NCBI RefSeq assembly: GCF_009914755.1
Contig: NC_060927.1
Strand: one strand, 5' to 3'
DNA: 64,000 nucleotides
From: the human T2T-CHM13v2.0 reference genome, Homo sapiens
The position numbers and the translations under genes are program-made. The notes beneath the pieces are model-generated. The model saw only the letters and a list, made by a program, of their open reading frames with translations, did no database searches and was not told the origin of the DNA. This document shows, piece after piece, positions 22,757-63,779 of the stretch. Positions within the stretch are counted from its first letter, which is position 1. Every line of letters starts with the position of its first letter.

Positions 22757-25024
22757 TTTTTTATTTTCTATTTTATTTTATTTTATTTATTATTATTATA
22801 CTTTAAGTTTTAGGGTACATGTACACAATGTGCAGGTTAGTTACATATGTATACATGTGCCATGCTGGTGCTCTGCACCCACTAACTCATCATCTAGCAT
22901 TAGGTATATCTCCCAGTGCTATCCCTCCCCCCTCCCCCCACCCCACAATAGTCCTCAGAGTGTGATGTTCCCTTTCCTGTGTCCATGTGTTCTCATTGTT
23001 CAATTCCCACCGATGAGTGAGAATATGCGGTGTTTGGTTTTTTGTTCTTGTGATAGTTTACTGAGAATGATGATTTCCAATTTCATCCATGTCCCTAAAA
23101 AGGACATGAACTCATCATTTTTTATGGCTACATAGTATTCCATGGTGTATATGTGCCACATTTTCTTAATCCAGTCTATCATTGTTGGACATTTGGGTGT
23201 TTCCAAGTCTTTTCTATTGTGAATAATGCCGCAGTAAACATACTTGTGCATGTGTCTTTATAGCAGCATGATTTATAGTCCTTTGGGTATATACCCAGTA
23301 ATGGGATGGCTGGGTCAAATGGTATTTCTAGTTCTAGATCCCTGAGGAATCGCCACACTGACTTCCACAATGGTTGAACTAGTTTACAGTCCCACCAACA
23401 GTGTCAAAGTGTTCCTATTTCTCCACATCCTCTCCAGCACCTGTTGTTTCCTGACTTTTTAATGATTGCCATTCTAACTGGTGTGAGATGGTATCTCATT
23501 GTGGTTTTGATTTGCATTTCTCTGATGGCCAGTGATGGTGAGCATTTTTTCATGTGTTTTTTGGCTGCATAAATGTCTTCTTTTGAGAAGTGTCTTTTCA
23601 TGTCCTTTGCCCACTTTTTGATGGGGTTGTTTGTTTTTTTCTTGTAAATTTGTTGGAGTTCATTGTAGATTCTGGATATTAGCCCTTTGTCAGATGAGTA
23701 GATTGTGAAAATTTTCTCCCATTTTGTAGGTTGCCTGTTCACTCTGATGGTAGTTTCTTTTGCTGTACAGAAGCTCTTTAGTTTCATTAGATCCCATTTG
23801 TCAATTTTGTCTTTTGTTGCCATTGCTTTTGGTGTTTTAGACATGAAGTCCTTGCACATGCCTATGTCCTGAATGGTAATGCCTAGGTTTTCTTCTAGGG
23901 TTTTTATGGTTTTAGGTCTAACGTTTAAGTCTTTAATCCATCTTGAATTGATTTTTGTATAAGGTGTAAGGAAGGGATCCAGTTTCAGCTTTCTACATAT
24001 GGCTAGCCAGTTTTCCCAGCACCATTTATTAAATAGGGAATCCTTTCCCCATTGCTTGTTTTTCTCAGGTTTGTCAAAGCTCAGATACTTTTAGATATGT
24101 GGCGTTATTTCTGAAGGCTCTGTTCTGTTCCATTGATCTATATCTCTGTTTTGGTACCAGTACCATGCTGTTTTGGTTACTGTAGCCTTGTAGTATAGTT
24201 TGAAGTCAGGTAGTTTGATGCCTCCAGCTTTGTTCTTTTGGCTTAGGATTGACTTGGTGATGAGGGCTCTTTTTTGGTTCCATATGAACTTTAAAGTAGT
24301 TTTTTCCAATTCTGTGAAGAAAGTCATTGGTAGCTTGAAGGCGATGGCATTGAATCTGTAAATTACCTTGGGCAGTATGACCATTTTCACAATATTGATT
24401 CTTCCTACCCATGAACATGGAATGTTCTTCCATTTGTTTGTATCCTCTTTTATTTCCTTAAGCAGTGGTTTGTAGTTCTCCTTAAAGAGGTCCCTCATGT
24501 CCTTTGTAAGTTGAATTCCTAGGTATTTTATTCTCTTTGAAGCAATTGTGAATGGGAGTTCACTCATGATTTGGCTCTCTGTTTGTCTGTTGTTGGTGTA
24601 TAAGAATGCTTGTGATTTTTGTACATTGATTTTGTATCCTGAGACTTTGCTGAAGTTGCTTATCAGCTTAAGGAGATTTGGGGCTGAGACAATGGGGTTT
24701 TCTAGATATACCATCATGTAGTCTGCAAACAGGGACAATCTGACTTCCTCTTTTCCTAATTGAATACCCTTTATTTCCTTCTCCTTCCTAATTGCCCTAG
24801 CCAGAACTTCCAACACTATGTTGAATAGGAGTGGTGAGAGAGGGCATCCCTGTCTTGTGCCAGTTTTCAAAGGGAATGCTTCCAGTTTTTGCCCATTCAG
24901 TATGATATTGGCTGTGGGTTTGTCATAGATAGCTCTTTATTATTTTGAGATACGTCCCATCAATACCTAATTTATTGAGAGTTTTTTGCATGAAGGGTTG
25001 TTGAATTTTGTCAAAGGCCTTTTC
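22757..25024 (-). mobile_element. 5'-truncated L1PA2-like LINE-1 (~2.3 kb)
   Basis: ORF2 RT and C-terminal peptides at 24091-24870 and 23404-23859 (FADD changed to FADY). 3'UTR carries the older GAG/A diagnostics. TSD tacaacttctt at 22746-22756 and 25025-25035. Confidence 0.95.
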
Positions 25025-26061
25025 TACAACTTCTTCATCTAAGCAATATGATTATTTTTACCATGAAGAAGAAAGCTATTGTTTAGCTATTTCTCTATTT
25101 TGTAGCCATTTTGAGATACACTCTTCCCACATCTGATTGCTTTGCACCTCAAAGAAAACTCTACCAGTAAAAATATGGTTATTTTGACTTGAGAATAATT
25201 ATACTGACCTCTGAAAAGGAAAAAATGTATAAGAATAGATTGGAGAATTTCTCTTCTTCTGACTAGGAAGACAAATCTTTTAAAGATGGAAGTAGAACAC
25301 AATGTGGTTTCTATTATGCTGACCCTTCCATTTTACGTGGATGAAAGGGCCACTTGATACACAAAAAATATCTTGACAACACCCATCACCTCTAATCCTA
25401 CTCCCCTTTTCCTGATTGACTCCCATCAGGATTAATATCTACCTGAGCTAATCAACCCAGATCAGCTGACAGTTTACTGCAAGTCAAACCGAACAGAAAT
25501 TTATCAATCTGGTCAATGGTGGCAAAATCTAGAAATGTTAGTCTCTTCTTGCAGTTCCTGCCTGTGCTTTAAGTTAAAGAGCCCTACTACTACACCTACT
25601 ACCACCATCACACCAGAGCCTTCTCACCTATCGCCCATCACTACCAGCCACGTGTTGCCAATATTTCATCCAGATCTCAAGGTCCCTGAGGTTCTTACTA
25701 TAATTTAAGGTTAGATGGGAAAAAGAGAGAGAAGCAATTAGCAAAATAGCATCATTAGTCCCAGCAGAACCTTAGCTGGGGTCTCTGATTGCTGCCAGTC
25801 ATCTTCACCTGGTGAGTGAATTATCCTACAACCTTTAACAAGACTCACCTTGAGTAGTTATGCGTATCAAAATAGGTATAATTTGGCCACATTTCTATTT
25901 GGATATCACTTTTTACTGCCAGCCCTTCCCCTATTAGCTAAAGTTTTCTAGGTTTTGTGTAACTTACAGGTCTTTCCCTTTTGCTCATTTCTTCTCCACT
26001 CCACCACACACAGTGCAGAAGCAGTTCTCAACATGTTTCTTCAACTAGGTGCCAAGGTATA

Positions 26062-26140
26062 ATATGTTGGTGCCAAAGCGATTGTGGTTTTTGCCTTTAC
26101 ATTTAATGACAAAAAACACAATCGCTTTTGCACCAGCTAA
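26062..26140. mobile_element. MADE1 mariner MITE (~80-bp palindrome; this family is the source of miR-548 hairpins)
   Basis: Matches TTAGGTTGGTGCAAAAGTAATTGCGGTTTTTGCC...GGCAAAAACCGCAATTACTTTTGCACCAACCTAA, in a TA context. Confidence 0.9.
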
Positions 26141-61386: not shown

Positions 61387-62242
61387 TGTATTAGTTTGTT
61401 TTCTGTTACTTATAACAAAATACCTGAAGCCGGGCAATCTATTTTTTAAAAGGAATTTATTCCTTACAGTTATGGAGGCTGACAAGTACAAGACTGTGGG
61501 CACCAAAAGTTCAGACATTAAATTTTAAAGCTAGAGAATAATCTCCCATGACTCCATATCCAGCATTCTGTGTATACTGGTACAGGGGTTGGGACCCCAA
61601 GTCCTCAGGCAGCCTTGCTTCCATGACTTTCCATGGCTCAGCCCACACTTCAGCTCTTCCAGGCTGGTGTTGCACCCTAGTAGATCTACAGTTCTAAGAT
61701 CTCAGTGGCAAATTCGCTCCTACAGCTCCCCAAGTCGTTGCCTTAGTAGGGGGTTCTCTATGGTGTCTCCTCCCCTGCAACAAGTCTCTGCCTGGGCCCA
61801 CAGGCTGTTTGATACATTCTTTGAAATTAGGTGGAAGTTGTCATGCCTCCACAGCTCTTGCATTCTGTGGACCTGAAGTTTTAACATCATGTGGATGCCC
61901 CGGAGGATTAAGGTTTGTACCTTTGGAGCGGTGCCTAGTGAAGCCATACCTGGGGCCAATTGAACCACAGCTGGGTGGTCAAGGAGTGCTGTGCTGAAAT
62001 ATAGACAGCATATACCTAAGGGATCTCTGTGAAGGAGCCTATGGAGGGCACTCCAGGCCTGTACCCAAAAACCATTCTGCCTTCCTAGACCTCTTAGCCT
62101 GTTATGAAAGGAGCAGTTTCAAAGATATCTGAAATGCCTTGGAGGTATTTCTTCCATTGTCTTGTGGAATAGCATCTGGCTCCCTTCTATCCATACTAAT
62201 TTCTTTAGCAAATGGTCCCTGGGCTACATTTTTGTCTCTCTC
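61387..62242 (-). mobile_element. MST-type MaLR: partial LTR (61387-61504) joined to MST-int
   Basis: Starts 'tgtattagtttgttttctgttact'. Internal 'aagatatctgaaatgccttggagg...ccattgtcttg' is an MST/THE1-int motif. Confidence 0.75.
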
Positions 62243-63779
62243 TTTTTTTTTTTTAATTTTATTTTACTATTACTATACTTTAAGTTTTAGGGTACATGTG
62301 CAAAATATGAAGGTTAGTTACATATGTATACATGTGACATGCTGGTGTGCTGCACCCATTAACTCATCATTTAGCATTAGGTATATCTCCTAATGCTATC
62401 CCTCCCCCCTCTCCCCACCACCCAACAGTCCCCAGAGTGTGATATTCCCCTTCCTGTGTCCAAGTGTTCTCATTGTTCAATTCCCACCTATAAGTGAGAA
62501 TATGAGGTGTTTGGTTTTCTGTTCTTGCGATAGTTTACTGAGAATGATGATTTCCAATTCCATCCACGTCCCTACAAAGGACATGAACTCATCATTTTTA
62601 TGGCTGCATAGTATTCCACGGTGTATATGTGTCACATTTTCTTAATCCAGTCTATCATTGTTGGACATTTGGGTTGGTTCCAAGTCTTTGCTATTGTGAA
62701 TAGTGCTGCAGTAAACAAACGTGTTCATGTGTCTTTATAGCAGCATGATTTATAGTCCTTTGGGTATATACCCAGTAATGGGATGGCTGGGTCAAATGGT
62801 ATTTCTAGTTCTAGATCCCTGAGGAATTGCCACACTGACTTCCACAATGGTTGAACTAGTTTACAGTCCCACCAACAGTGTCAAAGTGTTCCTATTTCTC
62901 CACATCCTCTCCAGCACCTGTTGTTTCCTGACTTTTTAATGATTGCCATTCTAACTGGTATGAGATGGTATCTCACTGTGGCTTTGATGTGCATTTCTCT
63001 GATGGCCAGTGATGGGGAGCATTTTTTGATGTGTTTTTTGGCTGCATAAATGTCTTCTTTTGAGAAGTGTCTTTTCATGTCCTTTGCCCACTTTTTGATG
63101 GGGTTGTTTGTTTTTTTCTTGTAAATTTGTTTGTGTTCATTGTAGATTCTGGATATTAGCCCTTTGTCAGATGAGTAGGTTTGGAAAATTTTCTCCCATT
63201 TTGTAGGTTGCCTGTTCACTCTGATGGTAGTTTGTTTTGCTGTGCAGAAGCTCTTTAGTTTAATTCGATCCCATTTCTCAATTTTGGCTTTTGTTACCAC
63301 TGCTTTTGGTGTTTTAGTCATGAAGTCCTTGCCCATGCCTATGTCCTGAATGGTAATGCCTCGGTTTTCTTCTAGGGTTTTTATGGTTTTAGGTCTAACA
63401 TTTAAGTCTTCAATCCATCTTGAATTAATTTTTGTATAAGGTGTAAGGAAGGGATCCAGTTTCAGCTTTCTACATATGGCTAGCCAGTTTTCCCAGCACT
63501 ATTTATTAAATAGGGAATCCTTTCCCCATTGCTTATTTTTCTCAGGTTTGTCAAAGATCAGATAGTTGTAGATATGCAGCATTATATCTGAGGGCTCTGT
63601 TCTGTTCCATTGATCTATATCTCTGTTTTGGTACCAGTACCATGCTGTTTTGGTTACTGTAGCCTTGTAGTGTAGTTTGAAGTCAGGTAGCGTGATGCCT
63701 CCAGCTTTGTTCTTTTGACTTAGGATTGACTTGGTGATGTGGGCTCTTTTTTGGTTACACATGAACTTTAAAGTAGTTT
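62243..63779 (-). mobile_element. 5'-truncated L1PA3-like LINE-1 (~1.5 kb)
   Basis: ORF2 C-terminal peptides at 62881-63336 and 63499-63762. Sense 3'UTR reads 'gctaaatgatgagttaatggg'. Poly(A) tail present. Confidence 0.93.

What the first reader, a model, noticed from the sequence alone, without database searches (positions are those of the whole stretch)
23249..62959. Three independently inserted L1s share the same ORF2 nonsense mutation (L1141*) inside a homogenised 234-bp tract
Seen: the L1PA2-like, pre-Ta L1HS and L1PA3-like copies all read ccaacagtgtCaaagtgttcc on + (stops at 23404-23406, 36780-36782 and 62881-62883), so each ORF ends at ...GCGEIGTL*. Known: the consensus is ...gtgtAaaag (TTA, Leu1141), just before His1142 of the CX3CX7HX4C motif. 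This is a non-CpG transversion, so three independent hits are unlikely. An element carrying it should also be a poor cis-source, so shared descent is unlikely too. Seen: 36625-36858 is identical to 62726-62959 over 234 bp, and 23249-23482 differs only at one CpG site. The next ~130 bp between the 36k and 62k copies has about 12 mismatches. Inference: ectopic gene conversion between co-oriented neighbours 13-39 kb apart copied an inactivating allele from old L1s into a young L1HS, which would be a recombination route to L1 inactivation. Alternative: read mis-mapping or polishing during assembly.
Basis: partly seen in the sequence, partly recalled or inferred. Interest (0 to 1): 0.8.

Follow-up and report, generated by a model that had tools for sequence, protein, structure and literature searches.

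The report
Patchy shared stop codon in L1s
Three neighbouring L1 retrotransposon copies do share one stop codon, but the same allele occurs in about 280 young L1 copies clustered in patches genome-wide, which suggests short local copying between neighbours rather than one 234-bp event.

Summary
Three minus-strand L1 copies read TGA where 15,430 genomic copies read TTA, and they are identical over 234 bp apart from one CpG site.

- The 234-bp identity is not a conversion signature. The same copies are identical over 208-232 bp to unrelated TTA copies, two of them on another chromosome.
- The allele is not private. There are 278 exact copies genome-wide, about 1.7% of the copies that match the 21-mer exactly.
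- No other variant is linked to the allele. It sits on pre-Ta, Ta-1-profile, GCG, GAG and older L1 backgrounds.
- It is strongly clustered. Median nearest-neighbour distance is 135 kb, and six of eight young L1s in the surrounding 264 kb carry it.
- A second patch, on contig 2, holds six carriers of different subfamilies within 90 kb.

Generic T>G hypermutation and a single sub-lineage are both disfavoured.

My best reading (about 0.45) is short-patch non-allelic gene conversion between neighbouring L1s. The two L1HS-type carriers each share a second rare marker, within 54 bp of the stop, with older carrier neighbours. The rate and direction this would need are unexplained, so the mechanism is inferred, not shown.

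The parts
22757..25031 (-). L1 copy A, 5'-truncated 3' part (matches positions 3770-6049 of copy B), GAG-type 3'UTR
   Evidence: 95.6% identical to B
23404..23406 (-). TGA at ORF2 codon 1141 in copy A
22746..22756 (.). target-site duplication of copy A (TACAACTTCTT), second copy at 25025-25035
36127..42193 (-). L1 copy B, full length, pre-Ta profile (ACG; G and C at the Ta-0/Ta-1 sites); ORF1 open (338 aa); ORF2 frame stops at codons 550 and 1141
   Evidence: diagnostics from PMC12350158
36780..36782 (-). TGA at ORF2 codon 1141 in copy B
38553..38555 (-). other premature stop of copy B (ORF2 codon 550)
36102..36116 (.). target-site duplication of copy B (CTACCCTGAACTTCT), second copy at 42194-42208
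36727..36727 (-). CpG-to-CpA change 54 bp 3' of the stop (sense strand). B, C and the outside copy E share it; A does not. It is rare (about 3%) in L1HS-type copies
62243..63779 (-). L1 copy C, 3' part (positions 4498-6035 of B), GAG-type, older 3'UTR states; its 5' end abuts an Alu-like sequence
62881..62883 (-). TGA at ORF2 codon 1141 in copy C
36625..36858 (-). 234-bp stretch identical between B and C (62726-62959), with one CpG difference to A (23249-23482)
54221..60348 (-). older L1 copy D (87.5% identical to B) that reads TCA at the same codon (54858-54878); about 10% diverged from A, B and C within the tract

Best explanation
The TGA at ORF2 codon 1141 is an allele that moves horizontally at the DNA level between L1 copies lying near one another. 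It is neither three mutations nor the mark of one L1 sub-lineage.

The proposed mechanism is short-patch non-allelic gene conversion, with tracts of tens of base pairs up to about 240 bp. The allele is copied between neighbours of any age, so L1-dense neighbourhoods become patches in which most young L1s carry it. This window lies in such a patch, at the edge of the chr3 pericentromeric alpha-satellite.

Shown here:
- the allele's genome-wide count;
- its presence on many subfamily backgrounds without linked markers;
- its strong spatial clustering;
- co-location of old and young carriers;
- second rare markers next to the stop in the two L1HS-type carriers, each shared with older carrier neighbours.

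Inferred: that conversion is the copying process, and that it has a direction or a local hot spot that favours TGA. T to G is a weak-to-strong change, which is the direction reported to be favoured in non-allelic conversion. Donor, direction and timing for each copy are not resolved.
For: Allele counts in the window's own genome (exact 21-mers):
- TGA 278 and TTA 15,430.
- TAA plus TCA 257. Of the first 100 listed, 15 are TAA and 85 are TCA.
- TGA is therefore about six times the other transversion.

Backgrounds:
- 25 carriers were read: 6 local, 7 on contig 1, 6 on contig 2, and 6 on contigs 4-6.
- They include the ACG triplet (B, L045), ACA with T/G (the outside full-length copy), GCG (L048, L049), GAG, and older 3'UTR types.
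- No other site separates 13 carriers from 12 TTA copies.
- A marker 250 bp upstream has 768 copies genome-wide. It lies in the same element as the stop in 3 carriers (positions, compared by eye).
- About 1.6% of L1HS-type 165-mers carry TGA: 6 exact against roughly 380.

Clustering:
- Median nearest-neighbour distance is 135 kb.
- 67% of 91 listed carriers on contigs 1-3 have another carrier within 300 kb. The figure is 17% for 47 TAA/TCA copies and 7.6% for uniform placement.
- Contig 2, 205.4-213.9 Mb, holds 24 of that contig's 32 carriers and 0 of 45 TTA L1HS-type copies.
- Contig 1, 165.3-170.8 Mb, holds 7 of 10 carriers against 3 of 87 copies of an L1HS-type marker.

Local census over 264 kb:
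- Copies at least 94% identical to B over at least 1.5 kb: 6 TGA and 2 TTA.
- The other five hits carry T, T, T, C and C.

Second patch: six carriers within 90 kb on contig 2 have different subfamily states and different flanks.

Co-markers:
- B carries the +54 CpA together with carriers C and E. That state occurs in about 3% of TTA L1HS-type copies: 12 exact against roughly 380.
- The Ta-1-profile carrier shares a non-CpG G>A at +43 with carrier E only, among the 31 young copies then in hand; none of six carriers read later has it.

Same-region pairs share 0.995 rare non-CpG variants per kb, against 0.290 for other pairs, with 0 of 2000 label shuffles reaching that value.

Literature:
- Non-allelic conversion occurs between transposable-element copies, with elevated rates between Alu copies less than 10 kb apart (PMC6598467, passages).
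- The human non-allelic conversion rate is 2.5e-7 per nucleotide per generation, with a mean tract of 250 bp and a large GC bias (bioRxiv 10.1101/135152, abstract).
Against: - Local copies are not more alike overall than distant copies of the same type. For example, A-E differ by 5.6% and A-T9038 by 4.7%, against 4.0% for A-L008 and 4.5% for A-L035.
- The published average conversion rate is far too low to convert two L1HS-type elements and most neighbours without a strong local hot spot or bias.
- Carriers show no cleaner sequence around the stop than TTA copies. Clean spans are 62-351 bp against 60-232 bp. Several carriers have private variants within 12-20 bp of the stop. There is no dip in singletons once the forced 21-bp identity is allowed for.
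- Variants shared only within a region show no weak-to-strong excess: 10 against 12, compared with 194 against 201 among private variants.
- TCA, also a strong allele, does not cluster in the same way.
- Carriers also concentrate at the 10-Mb scale, for example contig 3 with 45 before and 4 beyond the window's place among those listed. Stepwise local conversion alone does not explain this.
- The excess of shared rare variants is confounded with subfamily make-up and with two related pairs. Without those two pairs the local value is 0.877 per kb.
- The co-marker argument is post hoc and rests on two elements.
- L1HS-type carriers also lie on contigs 4, 5, 6 and 24. I could not see whether they have carrier neighbours.
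Confidence: 0.45

Rival explanations
1. One or more TGA-bearing L1 lineages retrotransposed, either in trans or through leaky read-through of UGA followed by C. On this view the allele was present at insertion, and the patches reflect an unknown regional insertion preference.
For: - 11 exact 110-mers of the B type with TGA lie on contigs 2, 3, 4, 5, 6 and 24.
- Three carriers on different contigs share T at the first Ta-1 site together with a GCG triplet.
- The allele frequency is about the same in the youngest copies (about 1.6%) as overall (1.7%).
- In the outside Ta-1-profile copy this stop is the first one in the ORF2 frame.
- Carriers carry private variants right next to the stop, as expected if the allele is as old as the insertion.
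Against: - No marker is linked to the allele, and carriers span at least five subfamily profiles.
- Patches mix old and young carriers that are 4-6% apart. A minority lineage of under 2% would then need a preference of about 200-fold for these patches.
- The cysteine-rich motif downstream of the stop is reported as essential for retrotransposition (PMC3091869, introduction passage).
- TAA, also a stop codon, shows no excess.
- The read-through idea is recalled knowledge and was not tested.
Confidence: 0.2
2. The site is a mutation hot spot: T>G at the end of the T run in CTTTTAC, with activity that varies by region.
For: The change is the same in all carriers, has no linked markers, and leaves neighbouring private variants untouched. 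TGA is about six times as common as TAA.
Against: - The T>G share of non-CpG variants is the same in patch and non-patch copies: 9.7%, 8.1% and 10.4% against 9.6%.
- 81% of the 91 listed carriers have another carrier within 1 Mb, so few are isolated and the excess lies in clusters.
- Allele frequency does not rise with element age.
- An older L1 in the 264-kb stretch, outside the carrier patch, has the exact 21-mer context and keeps T.
- A rate high enough to change six of eight copies, two of them L1HS-type, would be hundreds of times the average.
Confidence: 0.1
3. The allele is an assembly or polishing artefact that copies bases between similar repeats in some regions.
For: The pattern is specific to one site and to certain regions, is independent of element age, and has no linked markers. 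I could examine no reads.
Against: - The copies differ by 4-6% and carry many private variants right up to the site, so long accurate reads should place them uniquely.
- A carrier is also present on contig 24. From recall, that contig comes from a different sample and assembler.
- The reported accuracy of this assembly (recalled, not checked) leaves no room for about 230 errors of one kind.
Confidence: 0.05

Closest known systems
Non-allelic gene conversion between neighbouring transposable-element copies (neighbouring Alu homogenisation; Aleshin and Zhi 2010 as summarised in PMC6598467)
   Same: Copies of different subfamilies carry the same variant. The effect depends on proximity. Tracts are short. 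Subfamily markers show mosaic patterns.
   Different: Here a single nonsense allele dominates patches of about 200 kb and recurs in many patches, while the copies are not otherwise homogenised. Carriers lie 10-60 kb apart rather than under 10 kb. No orthologue comparison was possible.
Partial conversion of young L1 Ta or pre-Ta elements by older L1s (reported in surveys of human-specific L1s; recalled, no paper on this read here)
   Same: A young L1HS-type element (B; also the outside Ta-1-profile copy) carries a short stretch whose rare states match older neighbours.
   Different: The known cases were recognised by blocks of older diagnostic bases. Here the stretch holds no diagnostic base except the stop and one further marker, so the tract cannot be delimited.
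Ordinary L1 sub-lineage marker
   Same: A variant 250 bp upstream (768 copies) and two L1HS-type markers (1,197 and 940 copies) are shared by many copies genome-wide, as TGA is.
   Different: Two of those markers go with a subfamily profile. All three are spread more evenly: the -250 marker thinned to 42 copies has 27% of nearest neighbours under 300 kb, against 67% for TGA. TGA has no linked marker and breaks the reading frame.
Biased gene conversion acting as a drive (GC-biased conversion; erosion of recombination hot spots)
   Same: A weak-to-strong change rises in frequency without any function for the host.
   Different: Locally shared variants show no weak-to-strong excess. I saw no match to the recalled 13-mer hot-spot motif by eye. 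The bias is postulated, not measured.

Membership tests
Non-allelic (ectopic) gene conversion between dispersed repeats | The same derived variant sits on paralogues of different descent (phylogenetic incongruence) | tested here: met
   TGA sits on ACG, ACA, GCG, GAG and older L1 types with no linked site. All four combinations of the stop and the marker at -250 occur among the local copies.
Non-allelic (ectopic) gene conversion between dispersed repeats | A bounded tract with co-converted flanking markers | tested here: inconclusive
   B shares +54 A with C and E, and the Ta-1-profile copy shares +43 A with E. However, the 234-bp identity is matched by identity to unrelated TTA copies, and no clean zone surrounds the stop.
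Non-allelic (ectopic) gene conversion between dispersed repeats | Dependence on proximity of donor and acceptor | tested here: met
   Nearest-neighbour statistics; 6 of 8 young copies in 264 kb; six carriers within 90 kb on contig 2.
Non-allelic (ectopic) gene conversion between dispersed repeats | The orthologous locus in a related species keeps the pre-conversion state | not testable with these tools
   No ape genomes or other human haplotypes were at hand.
L1 sub-lineage (source-gene) marker | Carriers share further diagnostic variants and form one clade | tested here: not met
   No site is associated with the allele in 13 carriers versus 12 non-carriers. Distances do not separate the two groups. 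Six further young carriers fall into at least three profiles.
L1HS pre-Ta subfamily (copy B) | ACG at 5,929-5,931; G and C at 5,535 and 5,538 (PMC12350158) | tested here: met
   B reads ...GATGACACGTTAG... and AAAGGACTAT. Offsets +518 to +520 and +124/+127 from the stop map to those positions.
Site-specific mutation hot spot | Independent recurrence without regard to neighbours, and frequency rising with age | tested here: not met
   The excess lies in clusters. The frequency is about 1.6% in the youngest copies against 1.7% overall. There is no T>G excess in patches.

The most novel reading that the evidence does not exclude
A single nonsense allele of L1 ORF2 behaves as a locally contagious allele. 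A conversion process focused on this site and biased in direction copies it from resident L1s into newcomers of every later subfamily, including human-specific L1HS. L1-dense neighbourhoods would thereby disable the cysteine-rich C-terminal region of elements that land in them. That would be a homology-driven, region-specific route of L1 decay, visible as patches of about 200 kb grouped at the 10-Mb scale.
Probability: 0.2. Interest if true: 0.85.

Novelty: new variant of a known kind. Interest (0 to 1): 0.6.

Why it matters
L1 copies are usually treated as independent molecular fossils. Their differences are used to date insertions, define subfamilies and trace source elements.

If one allele can spread between neighbours of different ages until it is the local majority, three things follow. 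Local copies are not independent. Some shared mutations are not lineage markers. Young, potentially active elements can pick up disabling changes from old neighbours.

The strength of the clustering also needs explaining: a median of 135 kb between carriers of an allele at under 2% frequency. It points either to a conversion hot spot with a direction or to an unrecognised regional effect on L1 sequence. Both can be tested directly with the complete ape genomes and human pangenome assemblies.

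Tried and rejected
- **Long-identity island.** I tested whether the stop lies in an island of uninterrupted identity that would focus conversion there. 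The peak (29% of pairs in runs of at least 100 bp) shrinks to about the level of other regions once one allows that most copies were picked by an exact 21-mer. Rejected as shown.
- **Clock reset around the stop.** Singleton density is 8.4-8.6 per kb near the site against 13.6 overall. The same ascertainment explains this, so it is not significant.
- **Weak-to-strong bias among locally shared variants.** None found.
- **Regional T>G mutation bias.** None found.
- **Segmental duplication of the carriers.** Rejected: flanks, 5' ends and target-site duplications differ. The self-comparison found only L1-to-L1 matches and the 171-bp array.
- **Conversion tracts in B versus the Ta-1-profile copy.** Their 106 differences over 6,019 bp are spread evenly, with no block of older states.
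- **Ideas checked by eye only, from recalled motifs, with no computation.** These were quasi-palindrome templating, the 13-mer recombination hot-spot motif, L1 endonuclease site logic, a chi-like word, and an antisense splice donor destroyed by the change. None singles out G over C and A convincingly.
- **G>A changes 22-29 bp upstream.** They occur in 4 of 12 TTA copies and in none of 25 carriers. This is a post hoc observation. For the wider window (-40 to -11) the counts are 5 of 12 against 5 of 31, by eye.
- **Literature.** Seven searches ran. They and the passages read gave no report of a recurrent stop at this codon or of patchy L1 alleles. PMC4176336, on ORF2 stops in L1 loci, has no passage on shared positions for the terms I tried. 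Its supplements were not opened.
- **Steps that could not be done.** A gapped pattern to count the allele per subfamily was not accepted. A listing of the remaining carrier positions was stopped, so 178 of 278 places are unseen. Contiguous sequence of a second patch could not be fetched, so the ratio of TGA to TTA copies is known for one patch only.

Full report
**Observation**

The 21-mer with the C on the + strand occurs exactly three times, at 23395, 36771 and 62872, with none expected by chance. On the sense (minus) strand it reads GGA ACA CTT TGA. The ORF2 piece of the 36k copy ends ...GCGEIGTL.

Window 36625-36858 and 62726-62959 are identical over 234 bp. The 23k copy differs from both at one CpG site. 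From the difference list I counted 12 differences between the 36k and 62k copies in the next ~126 bp. A fourth, older L1 at 54221-60348 reads TCA at this codon and is about 10% diverged from the three within the tract.

**The elements**

I call the copies A (22757-25031), B (36127-42193, full length) and C (62243-63779). All are on the minus strand.
- A and B have their own target-site duplications of 11 and 15 bp.
- The 5' ends differ, so these are separate insertions.
- B has ACG at the 3'UTR triplet and G and C at the two ORF2 sites that separate Ta-0 from Ta-1. This is the pre-Ta profile as given in PMC12350158 (methods passage).
- A and C have GAG, the state of older elements (PMC6354063, introduction passage).
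- I could not test the labels L1PA2-like and L1PA3-like, because no consensus library was available. B differs from A by 4.0% and from C by 5.5%.
- B's ORF2 frame has a second premature stop at codon 550.

**The 234-bp tract is not evidence of homogenisation**

I projected 25 copies onto B: 13 carriers and 12 TTA copies. For every pair I measured the run of identity around the site, ignoring the site itself.
- B-C gives 234 bp.
- A against a TTA copy on contig 1 gives 232 bp.
- C and B against another contig-1 TTA copy give 211 bp each.
- B against a local TTA copy gives 208 bp.
- Median runs are 74, 75 and 75 bp for carrier-carrier, TTA-TTA and mixed pairs.

The three window copies simply match the family's common sequence here, plus the stop. 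Seventeen of the 25 copies were chosen by an exact 21-mer, which lengthens all these runs alike.

**Genome-wide counts**

The window's own genome (3.1 Gb; the window lies on contig 3) can be searched by pattern. Exact 21-mer counts are:

| Allele | Count |
|---|---|
| TTA | 15,430 |
| TGA | 278 |
| TAA + TCA | 257 (of the first 100 listed, 15 TAA and 85 TCA) |

TTA is the majority state. TGA is about 1.7% of all copies and roughly six times the other transversion. The tool states that counts of repeats are lower bounds. Only the first 100 places are listed, so I saw 100 of the 278 places (contigs 1-3 and contig 4 up to 77 Mb).

**Backgrounds**

No other site separates the 13 carriers from the 12 TTA copies, and pairwise distances do not separate them either.

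Carriers fall into several subfamily profiles:
- ACG: B and L045.
- ACA with T and G, the Ta-1 profile: the full-length copy at contig 3, 90,410,634-90,416,653. It is 98.2% identical to B and has its own 15-bp target-site duplication.
- GCG: L048 and L049.
- GAG with young or with older 3'UTR states.
- Clearly older types: L002, L004, L006, L040, L043, L044.

A marker 250 bp upstream (768 copies) lies in the same element as the stop in 3 carriers (positions, compared by eye). Its general frequency is about 5%.

Among 165-mers within two mismatches of B there are 442 matches:
- The only exact match is B.
- Six differ from B only by having CpG at +53/+54. They carry TGA.
- Twelve differ only by TTA.
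- 73 of the 81 listed two-mismatch rows are TTA with CpG.

This gives about 1.6% TGA in the youngest L1s. Eleven exact 110-mers of the B type with TGA lie on contigs 2, 3, 4, 5, 6 and 24.

**Clustering**

Of the 91 listed carriers on contigs 1-3, the median distance to the nearest other carrier is 135 kb.

| Set | Share with a neighbour within 300 kb |
|---|---|
| 91 TGA carriers | 67% |
| 47 TAA/TCA copies | 17% |
| Uniform placement | 7.6% (largest of 500 runs: 21%) |
| -250 marker thinned to 42 copies | 27% (largest of 2000 runs: 60%) |

- Contig 2, 205.4-213.9 Mb, holds 24 of that contig's 32 carriers and none of 45 TTA L1HS-type copies.
- Contig 1, 165.3-170.8 Mb, holds 7 of 10 carriers against 3 of 87 copies of an L1HS-type marker.
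- That contig-1 patch is not pure. Two L1HS-type TTA copies lie 26 and 40 kb from carriers.

**Local census**

I joined the window with 200 kb of flanks and located every L1 that covers the site.
- Copies at least 94% identical to B over at least 1.5 kb: six TGA (A, B, C, and three outside the window at 90.342, 90.355 and 90.411 Mb) and two TTA (adjacent copies at 90.384-90.392 Mb).
- The other five hits: T (87.6% identical), T (91.2%), T (a 135-bp fragment), C (67.7%) and C (87.5%).
- With a genome-wide frequency of 1.7%, six or more of eight has a chance of about 8e-10 (my arithmetic).
- From about 90.339 Mb onward the sequence is a 171-bp tandem array at about 80% identity, with L1s inserted in it.

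**Second patch**

The six carriers at contig 2, 209.25-209.35 Mb, have different 3' flanks and different subfamily states, and they differ from one another by 4.0-5.7%. At contig 4, 23.60 and 23.62 Mb, an ACG-type carrier and a GAG-type carrier lie 22 kb apart.

**What this excludes**

- Three independent mutations are excluded by the clustering.
- One sub-lineage is excluded by the variety of backgrounds.
- Duplication of a carrier is excluded by the flanks and target-site duplications.
- A general regional T>G process is disfavoured. The T>G share of non-CpG variants is 9.7% (local), 8.1% (contig-2 patch) and 10.4% (contig-1 carriers), against 9.6% in contig-1 TTA copies.
- A plain hot spot is disfavoured. 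Few listed carriers are isolated (81% have another carrier within 1 Mb), and the frequency does not rise with age.

**Evidence for local copying**

Old and young carriers lie together in every patch I could read.

The two L1HS-type carriers of the local patch each have a second rare state close to the stop that an older carrier neighbour shares:
- B has A at +54, as do C and E. That state is seen in about 3% of TTA L1HS-type copies.
- The Ta-1-profile copy has A at +43. Among the 31 young copies then in hand only E shares it, and none of six carriers read later has it.

Pairs of copies from the same region share 0.995 rare, non-CpG, derived variants per kb, against 0.290 for other pairs. None of 2000 label shuffles reached that value. 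This comparison is confounded with subfamily make-up. It also includes two related pairs; without them the local value is 0.877 per kb.

The Ta-1-profile copy shares three further rare variants with the TTA copy 22 kb away.

**Evidence against a simple conversion model**

- Local copies are not closer overall than distant copies of like type.
- Carriers are not cleaner around the stop and often have private variants within 12-20 bp.
- Locally shared variants show no weak-to-strong excess.
- TCA does not cluster in the same way.
- Carriers also concentrate at the 10-Mb scale.
- The published rate of non-allelic conversion is 2.5e-7 per nucleotide per generation, with a 250-bp mean tract and a GC bias (bioRxiv 10.1101/135152, abstract only). 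Without a local hot spot or a strong bias, that rate is far too low to convert most young copies of a patch, two of them L1HS-type.

Conversion is therefore my best reading, but it needs an added, unexplained ingredient.

**Context from papers**

- The review PMC6598467 (passages) summarises conversion between transposable-element copies and elevated rates between Alu copies under 10 kb apart.
- PMC3091869 (introduction passage) states that the cysteine-rich motif CX3CX7HX4C of ORF2p is essential for retrotransposition. The stop lies inside that motif (...GCGEIGTL* then HCWWDC in the frame).
- My seven searches that ran, and the passages read in PMC4176336 and PMC13192797, gave no report of this recurrent stop or of patchy L1 alleles. 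Subscription papers and supplements were not seen.

**Limits**

- Only 100 of 278 carrier places were seen.
- The TGA-to-TTA ratio is known for one patch only.
- TTA controls are 10 copies from the first 21 Mb of contig 1, two local copies, and one found in a carrier's locus.
- No ape genome, other human haplotype or read data could be consulted.
- Subfamily names other than pre-Ta and Ta-1 rest on relative distances.

**Verdict**

- The shared stop is real and is not three independent hits.
- The 234-bp tract proves nothing.
- The allele is a genome-wide, patchy allele carried by L1s of every young subfamily.
- Local DNA-level copying is the most likely cause (0.45).
- Its rate, direction and large-scale distribution remain unexplained.

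Noticed in passing
outside the window: contig 3, about 90,339,000 to at least 90,424,000 (loci L015-L023): A 171-bp tandem array at about 80% identity between units, like monomeric alpha satellite. At least five L1 insertions lie in it, three of them carriers of the stop.
   Followed up: partly
outside the window: contig 3, 90,410,607-90,416,702 (loci L022-L023): A full-length L1 with the Ta-1 profile and a 15-bp target-site duplication. About 20 bp of non-L1 sequence and a second A run lie between its poly-A and the duplication, which looks like a short 3' transduction. It differs from B at 106 of 6,019 positions, which seems high for this profile.
   Followed up: partly
window 23655 (copy A), and genome-wide: A second L1 variant 250 bp upstream of the stop (A to C on the sense strand) has 768 exact copies. 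It is also more clustered than uniform placement: 46% of nearest neighbours lie under 300 kb, against 10%. Four of eight local young copies carry it, including the Ta-1-profile copy.
   Followed up: partly
window 38553-38555: Copy B has another premature stop at ORF2 codon 550, while its ORF1 is open over 338 codons.
   Followed up: yes
local L1 copies, contig 3, 90.23-90.42 Mb: C>A makes up 13% of non-CpG variants in the eight local copies (58 of 443), against 6% in contig-1 TTA copies (24 of 407).
   Followed up: no
contig 3, 90,383,594-90,391,870 (loci L019-L020): The two local TTA copies are adjacent and in opposite orientation. They share many rare variants, as if one were an inverted duplicate of the other.
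   Followed up: no
contig 2, 222,633,748 / 222,635,391 and 209,613,789 / 209,616,697: Two pairs of carriers lie tail to tail in opposite orientation, with the stops 1.6 and 2.9 kb apart.
   Followed up: no
window 63780-64000: Copy C ends against an Alu-like sequence. Whether the L1 continues beyond the window was not checked.
   Followed up: no
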